From positions 868,001 to 932,000 of the forward strand of contig CM075988.1 in the NCBI GenBank assembly GCA_038087875.1: DNA of 64,000 bases, in the 5' to 3' direction. The notes under the pieces are model-generated. The model saw only the letters and a list, made by a program, of their open reading frames with translations, searched no databases and was not told the DNA's origin. A program made the position numbers and the translations under genes. This stretch comes from Malacoraja senta. Taxonomy: Eukaryota. Of the stretch, positions 16,860 to 20,380 are shown piece after piece; position 1 is the first letter of the stretch, and each line of letters opens with the position of its first letter.

Positions 16860-16867
16860 TCTATCTA

Positions 16868-17418
16868 TCTATATACTATTAAAACTCTGTGTGTGTGGGG
16901 GAGTGTGGGTGTGTGTGTTTGTGGGTGTCAGATTTGGCCTTTGATTCCTTGCTCCGCCAAAACCACACGCGAAAACTCTGCGATTTTTTCCATTTCACTA
17001 AACATTACACTTTTACATACCCCAACACACTCCTTATTAGATTTAGACATTTTTATGTACACATTTTAAAATAAAATCCCTCCTCCCCCCCCCCCCTTCA
17101 CTCATTTTGTTGCCTCCTGCTGGCCAGCCACCATAACGGCTGCTGCCGCCCGGCTCTGCTCCAAAAACGCCGACAGTTTTTTTCTTTCGCTAGCGATTTT
17201 CGCTGCTGCCGCCCGCCTCTCCTCCATTACCACCCCCCCCCCCCCCCTCCGGGCCGGCTCTCTCATGCTGGCTCAAGCCAAACATTGGCTCTTCCCCCTC
17301 TGCTTTTCGCCGTACTCTGTGTCTATGCCGTCAAGATGCTGAAGCACGTTCGGGAACCAGACCTCGGGGTCTGAAGCACGTTCGGGGTCCAGACCCAATG
17401 GGTCTGCACTTGGTCTAG
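16868..17418 (+). mobile_element. Short non-autonomous Helitron A
   Basis: 5' TCTATATACTATTAAAACTC; perfect 3' hairpin CAGACCC-AAT-GGGTCTG (17390-17406), CTAG at 17415-17418, then T. Confidence 0.82.
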
Positions 17419-20227
17419 TACATAACTAAAACTCTGATCTTGTTATCTTCCGGTTTGGCGGTCATTCTATTTGTGCAAAAACGGTATGTGATTGCGCTAT
17501 GATTTTTCTCCAGCTTATTCACCATTTTCCTTTGCTGCAATTGCACTAAGTTTTGTTCCGATCGGTGGAAGCTGGTAAGAGGTTAAAAATCTTAAAAACC
17601 ACGCTTGCGCTGATTGATTGCTTCTCCTGCCATTCAGTCCCTTCCACTGTCACTCCATGGGACGGTCCACCCCTTCCTGCGTCATTGCGTCTTTACTGCA
17701 GCTGTGGGAGGCTCTGGGTGGCTGATGGAGGTCTCCAACCGGAAACAATTTACGGAGGGAGGGATCGGAAACTGCCCGACCTGGCCCGACCCAGTCCAGC
17801 CCAGCCAGCGAGGAGTCAGAGTTGGCGCCGATGTCGCCAAACGGAAAGCAGAGACTCTGATCCTGGTGGAGGAGAACGACCAGCAACCTACGAAGCGACC
17901 AGTGACCAGCGCCCGCTGTGAGTCCCCATCGCACCCCAACCCCTTCCCGGCTGGCTCCTGACCCCCTCCCCGTGATACTCTCCCCCATGGCTCTTCCCCT
18001 GTCTTTTCTCCGAGCTCTCTCCCCCCTGACCTCCCGCCCCCACACCTCTCCCCACAACCCTCCCCCTCACAACCCCCCCCCCACACAACCCTCCCACACA
18101 ATCCTCCCTCCAACACACCCCTCCCTTCCACACACCCCTCACAACCCTCACCCTGCCCACACACACCCCTCTCCCACACACCCCTCTCCCACACACCCCT
18201 CTCCCACACACCCCTCTCCCACACACCCCTCTCCCACACACCCCTCTCCCACACACCCCTCCCCCACAACCCCCCCACCCACACACCCCTCTCCCCCACA
18301 ACCCCCCCCCCGCCCACACATACCCCCTGTACACCCCTCCCCCCAATCCCTCTGACCACACATACCCCTCCCTCCCACACCCCTCCCTCCCACACATCCC
18401 TCTCCCCCACATCCCTCTCCCCCACAACCCCCCCCACACATATCCCCCCACAACCCCTCCCCCACACCACAACTCCATGCCCACACACACCCCTCTCCCA
18501 CACACACTCCCCCTCTCCCCCACAACCCCCCTCCACCCCCCTCTTCCCCACAACCCCTCCACCCACAACCCCCTCTCCCCCCACACACCCCTCCTGTGAG
18601 AAAGGGGTTAATAGGTAAAGTTGATTTAAACTAAGGACCCTGAGAAATAGCTGAGAGCAGACACACAGGAGGGTGATGACGAGCTCTCAGCACGAACACC
18701 CGACAGCGCTCGACTAGATAATAGCCGAAAGAACAACTGGTGACATTTCAAGGATAAGAAACAGGAGATAGCGACAGTCCGGCAAGAACTAGGGTAAAGG
18801 GCATGAAGTACTCCACTGCGCTTGCGTAATGAGATAAATGAATATTGCAAACACGCCCATCTTGACAAGATGTCTCATTTAAATGCACATGCGATGTATG
18901 ATCTGGGAGGTACCCTGGGTGTTACGGGGCGTTCCGGTTAGATTGTGCACCTCAGTGCTCTGATTGGAAGGAGCCCGAAGGGGAGGAATTAAAGGTGTAC
19001 CCATTGTAAAGTGGTGTGAATAAAAGAGAGTGACTTTCCTGGTCTCGGTGTGTCTCGGTCAAGGAGAGACACCCGGGGGCTGCAGACTCGTAAATAAAGG
19101 AATTTCTTGTTTCCACGATTGTCTCTGGCATTGTGATTGTGAGCAGTCACGATATATCTCACACCTCCCCCACCCACAAACCCACAAAACACCCCCTGCC
19201 CACCCCCCTGTGTACAATTCCCCCTGATCACAACCCCCCCACAAACCCCCCACCCACATACGCACCCCTCCCCCCCACCCCCCGCCCACATACACCCCCA
19301 CCCCCCACCACCCCTCCCCTCCACATCCCTCCCTTTAAAAAAAGCCAACGTTGTAAAAAATAGGGAGTGACGGGGAGACTCTTCCAGCAGTTTCCAGTGA
19401 TGATGTCACAATGCCATCTCACAGTCATCCAATCACAATGGGATCTCATTTACCCAATCTGCCGTGAAGATTCCGAAAATCGAAAATGACATCACAATGG
19501 GATCTACTCCTGCACCTATGGTCTATGGTCTATTGTCTATTGTCTATCTCTTCTATTCTCTGCTGATCTCTGTTGTAAGGAGAGGGACGTAGTGGGGGAG
19601 AGTTACAAGTTTTAAAGTGACATTTAAAAGTTGGATTTCTTCAAATCTGCACTGGCAGTTAGGCAGTTAGGCAGTTATGATGTCACAATGTCCAACTGGC
19701 TGCAATGTTGCAATCCAAGAACACCGAGCCCTTTACAGCAAATGTCCTTCAGGGAAAGAATCTGCCAGCCTAACCCAGCACAGCAAAGTTTAATGATTAG
19801 ATTTGGATAGCAAAGGAGAAGAATCTGCCAGCCTAACCCAGCACAGTGAAGTTTAATGATTAGATTTGGATAACAAAAGATGGCCTTGTCGGTGGCACAT
19901 ACATCACATTAAATCTTAGTGCAAATGCATTTTTTTTCAAGTTTAAAATGACAGCTGGGGGCTATGGGTGAGTGGTGGAATATTGCATTGGGGAACAGGT
20001 TGGCATTGGGGGAACGGGTGAGTGGTGGAATCTTACGTTGGGGAACGGGTTGCGTTGGGGGACCAGGCCTCCCGTGGGGGCTATGGGTGAGTGCTGGATT
20101 ATTGCGTTGGGGGAACGGGTTACCTTGGGGGAATGAGTGAGTGGTGGAAACGGGTTGCATTAGGGGAATGGGCGAGTGGTGGATTATTGCATTGGGGGGC
20201 GGGCCCAATGGGTCCCACTTGGTCTAG
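17419..20227 (+). mobile_element. Non-autonomous Helitron B (contains a solo LTR)
   Basis: Starts TACATAACTAAAACTC (a 5' end minus TCTA); subterminal repeats shared with 16600-16690; hairpin GGGCCCAATGGGTCCC then CTAG at 20224-20227. Confidence 0.78.
18595..19163 (+). mobile_element. Solo LTR (569 bp)
   Basis: TGTGAGA...TCTCACA inverted termini, 5-bp TSD CCTCC on both sides, AATAAA signals near 19019 and 19093. Confidence 0.85.
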
Positions 20228-20380
20228 CATATGATAATAAAACTCTCTTGACTCTTGACATAGTCCTCTCTGACGAAGTCCTCTTTGATGGAGTCCCCTC
20301 TGACATAATCCTCTTTGAAATACTTTTTTTTGAACGAGCATTGTTTGAAGAAGGCATTTGAGCTAATATACAAACAGAAA
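20228..20380 (+). mobile_element. Helitron C, 5' fragment
   Basis: CATATGATAATAAAACTCTC directly after CTAG, followed by about 15-bp tandem repeats; truncated before the CR1. Confidence 0.55.

What the first reader, a model, noticed from the sequence alone, without database searches (positions are those of the whole stretch)
16860..20250. Self-targeting Helitron stack with a matching TCTA tally
Seen: three different Helitron-like elements (A 16868-17418, B 17419-20227, C from 20228) are joined directly, 3' CTAG to the next 5' end. A free 5' end reads TCTA + 9 nt + AAAACTC. B reads 9 nt (TACATAACT) + AAAACTC and C reads 11 nt + AAAACTC, so both lack the leading TCTA. In front of the stack are exactly three TCTA units (16860-16871). 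Established: Helitrons have TC...CTRR ends with a subterminal hairpin and insert between A and T without a TSD. Inference: each new element inserted at TCTA^T inside the 5' terminus of the resident one and displaced one TCTA upstream. The stack would then be an ordered record of insertions (newest first) and the microsatellite would count them. Because the members are different families, a rolling-circle concatemer of a single element does not explain it.
Basis: partly seen in the sequence, partly recalled or inferred. Interest (0 to 1): 0.82.

Follow-up and report, generated by a model that had tools for sequence, protein, structure and literature searches.

The report
Helitrons stack inside their own ends
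In this genome thousands of rolling-circle transposons sit head-to-tail in age-ordered stacks, likely because each new one inserts four bases inside the front end of an older one, and the short TCTA repeat in front grows with the stack but overcounts it, so it is a rough log rather than an exact counter.

Summary
The general idea holds genome-wide, but the reading of this locus is wrong and the tally is not exact. Tail-to-TCTA-less-head junctions number 3963 (control 0). Free heads carry TCNN. Families are ordered youngest-first: 2 of 55 cross-family pairs break one order, and the upstream member is closer to its nearest relative in 42 of 50 pairs. Same-family neighbours are mutual closest copies in 0 of 27 pairs, so these are not concatemers. 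RepHel partners exist. Run length correlates with stack size (rho 0.74, 66 loci; 0.55 with only duplicates dropped). It matches exactly in only 9 of 40 stacks, with a slope of about 2. At this locus, C is the tail of another repeat, and the CTAG at 20227 belongs to element D (16691-16859 + 19334-20227). A and a 3'-truncated B inserted into D, so there are three units for two visible members. Extra units are often 5'-end prefixes (TCT, TCTATA), possibly from aborted nick-extend-reseal events (untested).

The parts
13421..16690 (+). Element E: Helitron-like, one TCTA, decayed CTGG end; inserted at A^T in a LINE-like repeat
   Evidence: left flank matches the flank of stack L088, no matching right flank in the window
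16691..16859 (+). Element D, 5' part: TCTA-less, decayed head directly behind E's tail; host of the A-B insertion
16860..16871 (+). Run of three TCTA: A's own unit, plus (inferred) B's displaced unit and one extra unit; D has no TCTA at this site in relatives
   Evidence: (D relatives at this position)
16868..17418 (+). Element A: complete non-autonomous Helitron (TC...hairpin-CTAG), about 90% like other copies
17419..19333 (+). Element B: TCTA-less head and body; own 3' tail missing (deletion that also took about 16 nt of D); right edge approximate
18595..19163 (.). Solo-LTR-like insert inside B (TG...CA, 7-bp inverted ends, CCTCC duplication); observed only
   Evidence: B copy L203 matches up to 18594
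19334..20227 (+).
20228..20260 (+). 'C': 33-bp 3' tail of a different interspersed repeat (retroposon-like, inferred from AATAAA and short tail repeats); not a Helitron head
3530..3606 (+). Second run in the window: about 19 units, including TCTATA, TCT and TTTA
3603..6548 (+). G-family element leading the second stack
6549..8310 (+). TCTA-less G-type element cut by the gap at 8311-8510; 7656-8310 is 93% like the region upstream of an intact RepHel ORF (L276)

Best explanation
Helitron elements of several families lie in same-strand, youngest-first stacks whose inner members lack their first four bases, most likely because each new element was inserted at TCTA^T inside the 5' end of the resident one and pushed that TCTA in front of the stack. 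Shown: the junctions, the order, the independent origin of neighbours, RepHel partners with the same ends, and host target sites that resemble the head (T, G-poor spacer, then TAAA at about +8 to +12). Inferred: the RepHel transposase does the targeting, and heads are hit about 20-40 times more often than the host-site motif alone predicts, so something beyond base preference (likely binding to the resident 5' end, or locally open hot spots) draws it there. The run is a noisy log: at least one unit per insertion, padded to about two per member by host TC-like bases, 5'-prefix stubs (TCT, TCTATA) that would arise at the terminus itself, slippage once the run is long, and lost members. It is cut short when a stack moves as a composite or the head is damaged.
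For: Junctions: 3963 vs 0 control, at least 18% of an estimated 21,500 exact tails; about 29 of the 100 tails listed are followed by a head, by eye. 149 of 151 junction heads start with T, and 35 of 46 G junctions lack exactly TCTA. All but about 4 of 78 free B heads listed start with a TC unit (by eye). Order: 2 of 55 cross-family pairs break G>K>A>E>B,P,Q,S; without G, 1 of 25, against a mean of 6.4 for random orientation, 0 of 200 as low. Upstream member closer to its nearest relative in 42 of 50 cross-family pairs (p 1e-6) and in 32 of 47 pairs not led by G (p 0.019). Tip branches: G median 0.016, B median 0.093. 0 of 27 adjacent G-G pairs are mutual closest copies. Tally: rho 0.78 (38 loci chosen by head motif only), 0.74 (66), 0.66 within G-led loci (40), 0.68 for non-G (26). 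RepHel: 112 matches, ORFs of 1727 and 1669 aa with PF14214 + PF05970; L121 has the same head and tail around decayed Rep and helicase frames. Stubs: TCT makes up 18 of 397 units in head runs vs 2 of 391 in other runs, and both of those two are missed head runs; only 1 CTAG-ATACTTTT junction exists genome-wide; TCT-bearing B copies form no clade (8 changes vs 8.4 shuffled).
Against: No paired gain of one unit and one element was seen directly; the relatives' contigs laid on L217 did not show the joint. With only duplicates dropped, rho falls to 0.55 (99 loci), and U < n in 14; six dropped stacks of 2-6 members have 0-1 recognisable units. L075 has intact flanks, one TCTA and three members, which needs composite transposition or loss. 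My prediction that P-family second members would leave TCTC in the run failed: of 30 loci, about 10 were resolved, showing TCTA (6, two of them duplicates), TCAA (1), TTTA (1), TCTATA (1) and one ambiguous case. This fits an A^T rule only after the fact. The enrichment estimate rests on 56 host flanks and a fixed-register matrix, so it is rough. G-led loci were oversampled, which biases nearest-relative identity. Ten member counts were set by hand (rho 0.53 without them). TCT sits more often before young G subclades, so a run carried along with the element is not excluded for G.
Confidence: 0.75

Rival explanations
1. Passive targeting only: ordinary A^T plus AT-rich 3' preference, with local hot spots, makes heads good targets; no recognition of the resident end.
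For: Host 3' flanks resemble heads: AAA at +10..12 in 38% vs 4% of background A^T sites. Helraiser prefers AT-rich DNA 3' of the site (PMC4778049, passages). The same repeat sites are hit independently (LINE-like site before E, L052 and L088).
Against: The host-site matrix (5.4 bits) predicts 0.4-1.1% of insertions at heads, against at least 18% observed. The register is nearly always exactly +4.
Confidence: 0.2
2. Exact counter: one TCTA per stacked element, three and three at this locus.
For: Exact matches occur (9 of 40 stacks, e.g. L068, L220, L226), and 15 of 26 resolved solos have one unit.
Against: U > n in 38 of 66 loci, slope about 2, up to 34 units for 2 members. At L197, by eye, five units for two members at a host site that supplies none. 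At this locus there are only two visible members.
Confidence: 0.03
3. Stacks are rolling-circle concatemers or tandem duplications, and TCTA is lost at the junction by microhomology with the tail's TCTA.
For: Helitron circles and tandem arrays are known (PMC4778049, PMC5876387, passages). A few perfect CTAG-TCTA junctions and near-identical triplets occur (L088, L198).
Against: 55 of 121 adjacent pairs are of different families, in an age order. 0 of 27 same-family neighbours are mutual closest copies. The tail's G is kept, so the join is not a TCTA overlap.
Confidence: 0.04
4. The excess units come only from slippage and from members lost by recombination between same-family neighbours, not from stubs made at the terminus (a rival to the stub step only).
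For: Very long pure or degenerate runs show slippage (L095, L233, L236, L240). A TCT-headed G copy exists (L095). Two TACA duplications not starting at TC were seen (L295, L296).
Against: TCT sits at -2 in 8 of 78 listed free B heads, some in two-unit runs, while no TCT-headed B was listed. TCT is nearly absent from runs away from heads. One run holds a 14-nt copy of the B head prefix (L294).
Confidence: 0.4

Closest known systems
Canonical Helitron (Helitron1; Helraiser/Helibat type)
   Same: 5'-TC, hairpin + CTAG-3', A^T insertion without duplication, AT-rich preference 3' of the site, RepHel partner (PMC4778049, passages).
   Different: In the passages read, Helraiser's preference is only general AT-richness. 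Here at least 18% of exact tails abut a resident head in a fixed +4 register.
Helitron self-insertion and abutting insertions (Fusarium FoHeli; Myotis Helibat)
   Same: FoHeli4 inserted 2 bp upstream of another's 5' end; three tandem copies in Metarhizium possibly inserted into a 5' end twice; multiple 5' termini (PMC5148889, passages). Bat copies whose 5' end abuts another's 3' end (PMC4778049).
   Different: Those are single cases. The passages read describe no genome-wide age-ordered stacks and no displaced-terminus microsatellite.
Tandem Helitron arrays from rolling-circle amplification (plants, bats, Xenopus)
   Same: Head-to-tail, same-strand arrays (PMC5876387, PMC12001565, passages; Xiong 2016 seen only as cited).
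   Different: There the junction keeps TC and the members are copies of one element; here TCTA is displaced and neighbours are independent insertions.
Polarised arrays: CRISPR leader-end spacers, integron cassettes, Drosophila HeT-A 5' tag strings (all recalled, from no call)
   Same: Works like them: new units are added at one end, the order records time, and for HeT-A short tags pile up with each event.
   Different: Unrelated enzymes; no membership claimed.

Membership tests
Helitron1 | 5'-TC terminus | tested here: met
   A at 16868; free heads of B, P and G start with TC
Helitron1 | CTRR-3' terminus | tested here: met
   CTAG at 17418 and 20227; 15188 counted tails
Helitron1 | Subterminal hairpin | tested here: inconclusive
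   A 7-bp stem ends 12 nt from A's end, but z is -1.6 to +0.8 in four window ends
Helitron1 | Insertion at A^T without target duplication | tested here: met
   +1 is T in 91% of 65 host-class flanks and in 149 of 151 junction heads; L075 and L197 flanks rejoin without duplication, by eye
Helitron1 | Autonomous RepHel partner with the same ends | tested here: met
   L121 has head, tail and decayed Rep/helicase frames; L276 has PF14214 + PF05970 followed by the same tail, and its upstream region matches the window's G-type element. L276's own 5' end lay outside the stretch fetched.
Helitron1 | Element C is a member | tested here: not met
   Matches the tail of another repeat, with no Helitron body
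Helitron2/Helentron (HINE, DINE-1) | TT target and asymmetric terminal inverted repeats | tested here: not met
   Ends are TC...CTAG and the base before free heads is mostly A; inverted repeats were not searched for separately
Rolling-circle concatemer array | Members are copies of one donor, with CTAG|TC junctions | tested here: not met
Helitron1 | Present-day mobility by the RepHel protein | not testable with these tools
   Needs a cell assay or population data

The most novel reading that the evidence does not exclude
This RepHel uses its own 5' terminus as an integration platform, and also leaves TC-anchored prefix duplications when it nicks a resident end, extends a few bases and reseals. 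The run would then log every engagement of the site, successful or aborted: a transposase-written microsatellite in front of a time-ordered array.
Probability: 0.3. Interest if true: 0.85.

Novelty: new variant of a known kind. Interest (0 to 1): 0.66.

Why it matters
How Helitrons choose targets beyond A^T is poorly known. A fixed +4 register inside the element's own end gives a precise, testable substrate. The stacks give the relative ages of families from order alone, without a clock. Self-targeting would be a safe-haven strategy that still leaves a working TC end at the front and can make composite elements. It also points to a route by which (TCTA)n microsatellites are born at transposon ends. 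For annotation, such stacks are easily misread as single large elements or as concatemers, and they can sit at assembly gaps.

Tried and rejected
Relatives' contigs (runs X3, X4, X8, X9) laid on stack L217: both flanks are present, but no joint across the stack was among the rows shown (1393 not shown), so paired gain is untested. G-body bins had little or no cover, which I do not count as evidence. Carried-run test: no clade signal in B (weak tree, selected loci), a hint in G. P-family TCTC test did not give the predicted unit. The stacks chosen by junction were used for order and age, not for the tally statistics. Rows dropped before the tally: of 105 head loci, 1 skipped (wrong strand entered), 5 duplicates, 11 with damaged head, TA run or nested position, and 22 solos with no tail found, leaving 66; sensitivity runs are. 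Nine of 65 flanks were removed as non-host before the matrix. E's right LINE flank was not found in the window, so why E-D ends on the C tail is unexplained. Literature: ten searches found no report of this pattern. Passages only were read from PMC5148889, PMC4778049, PMC5876387, PMC12001565, PMC13286980, PMC10288648, PMC3789558, PMC4224331 and PMC13085455; no supplements were read, and Supplementary Fig. 4 of PMC4778049 (abutting bat Helitrons) may bear on novelty. Yang and Bennetzen 2009 (two papers) and Kosek 2021 were not held; Thomas and Pritham 2015 and Xiong 2016 were seen only as citations; Repbase was not available. Earlier scan findings: none.

Full report
THE LOCUS. The first 33 bp of 'C' match the 3' end of another interspersed repeat; seven such loci share an upstream body and have no Helitron tail on that strand. 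C's first 400 bp hit none of 291 catalogued Helitron 5' regions. Left of the run lies the 5' part of another element, D, with a decayed TCTA-less head behind element E (13421-16690). In 5 of 10 D relatives the sequence matching 16699-16858 continues directly into sequence matching 19334 onward, and a sixth resumes at 19380. None of 9 longer B copies matches 19334-19950. So A and B inserted into D at an internal site, and a later deletion (inferred) removed B's tail and about 16 nt of D. D's relatives have no TCTA at that site, so three units were added and two members are visible. The window holds a second stack with about 19 units and at least two members, cut by a gap; its second member is 93% like the region upstream of an intact RepHel ORF.

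THE PATTERN IS GENOME-WIDE. Tail + 7-15 nt + AAAACTC occurs 3963 times, control 0. Exact tails number 15188 under a filter that passes roughly 70%, so at least 18% abut a head; by eye about 29 of the 100 listed do. Junction heads start with T in 149 of 151 cases, and 35 of 46 G junctions lack exactly four bases. Free heads carry TC units: TCTA for B (all but about 4 of 78 listed; 22 more follow tails of several types, so A-B is no fixed composite) and mostly TCTC for P. The elements pass the Helitron1 tests, and RepHel partners are present.

SEQUENTIAL, YOUNGEST FIRST. Of 121 adjacent pairs in 291 elements from chromosome-scale contig C1, 55 are cross-family and 2 break the best order. Without the oversampled G family, 1 of 25 breaks it, against 6.4 for random orientation (0 of 200 as low). 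Median nearest-relative identity broadly falls along that order, from G 96.7% to Q 81.2%, and the upstream member is the closer one in 42 of 50 cross-family pairs. Adjacent G copies are mutual closest relatives in 0 of 27 pairs (closer for one side in 4). This rules out concatemers or tandem duplication for most stacks.

THE TALLY. For 66 head loci (of 105 fetched; drops listed under Tried and rejected), units correlate with members: rho 0.74 overall, 0.78 in the 38 chosen by head motif alone, 0.66 within G-led and 0.68 in other loci. Exact matches are 9 of 40 among stacks, U > n in 38 loci, U < n in 4, Theil-Sen slope 2. With only duplicates removed rho is 0.55 and U < n in 14 of 99; the median is 1 unit for solos and 5 for stacks. 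L075 has one unit, three members and intact flanks. Composite movement by 3'-end bypass, shown for Helraiser (PMC4778049, passages), would explain it, but I did not test that.

WHY HEADS ARE HIT. Host 3' flanks are G-poor with TAAA at about +8 to +12, like the head after TCTA, in line with Helraiser's 3' AT-rich preference. A matrix from 56 flanks predicts only 0.4-1.1% of insertions at heads against at least 18% seen. The estimate is crude, but it suggests (inference) attraction to resident ends or strong local hot spots.

THE EXTRA UNITS. In 41 G-led runs there are 233 TCTA, 14 TCT and 12 TCTATA. TCT is nearly confined to head runs. Displacement at TCT^A would leave CTAG-ATACTTTT junctions, of which the genome has one. 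TCT-bearing B copies are not a clade, and one B has a 14-nt copy of its own prefix in front (L294). Helraiser is proposed to nick at the 5' end and resynthesise the donor from the nick (PMC5876387, passages); an early abort with resealing would duplicate a TC-anchored prefix. This step is my inference and is untested. Slippage clearly lengthens long runs, and loss of members, host bases or carried runs may add units. My test with P-family TCTC units did not give the predicted result, and the cross-species test was inconclusive.

COMPARISON AND VERDICT. Self-insertion, abutting copies and tandem arrays are on record as cases. Ten searches found no report of a fixed +4 self-target with age-ordered stacks and a displaced-end microsatellite, but key reviews and papers could not be read. 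The elements are ordinary Helitron1 members; their stacking behaviour is a new variant as far as searched. Confidence 0.75 for sequential self-targeted insertion with a noisy run; 0.03 for an exact counter. Interest 0.66.

Noticed in passing
window 6549-8310 and gap 8311-8510: G-type second member matches the 5' region of an intact RepHel locus (L276, 93% over 663 bp); the assembly breaks inside it.
   Followed up: partly
window 18595-19163: Solo-LTR-like insert with a 5-bp duplication inside B; observed only.
   Followed up: no
window 13421; L052; L088; G000:C1:107947628: The same site in a LINE-like repeat has been hit independently by different Helitron families.
   Followed up: partly
L233, L236, L240: Very long, degenerate TCTA/TCTC/TCTG microsatellites sit directly before E-family heads, suggesting microsatellite birth at Helitron ends.
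   Followed up: no
L205/L206 (G000:C1:72931850-72932062) and L128/L129: Pairs of G heads pointing away from each other about 100-250 bp apart; L128/L129 share the same flank as an inverted duplicate. Rearrangement or assembly artefact.
   Followed up: no
G000 contigs C2570, C6177, C3619, C2217, C3669: Two RepHel matches each on small unplaced contigs, several with ORFs over 1000 aa; autonomous copies may be clustered or stacked.
   Followed up: no
window 20620-23000: Decayed LINE-like (CR1-type, label recalled) sequence right of the stack.
   Followed up: no
L094, L147, L207, L218, L224: Internal tail-like motifs lacking the final AG inside long G-type elements, suggesting chimeras built from earlier stacks.
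   Followed up: no
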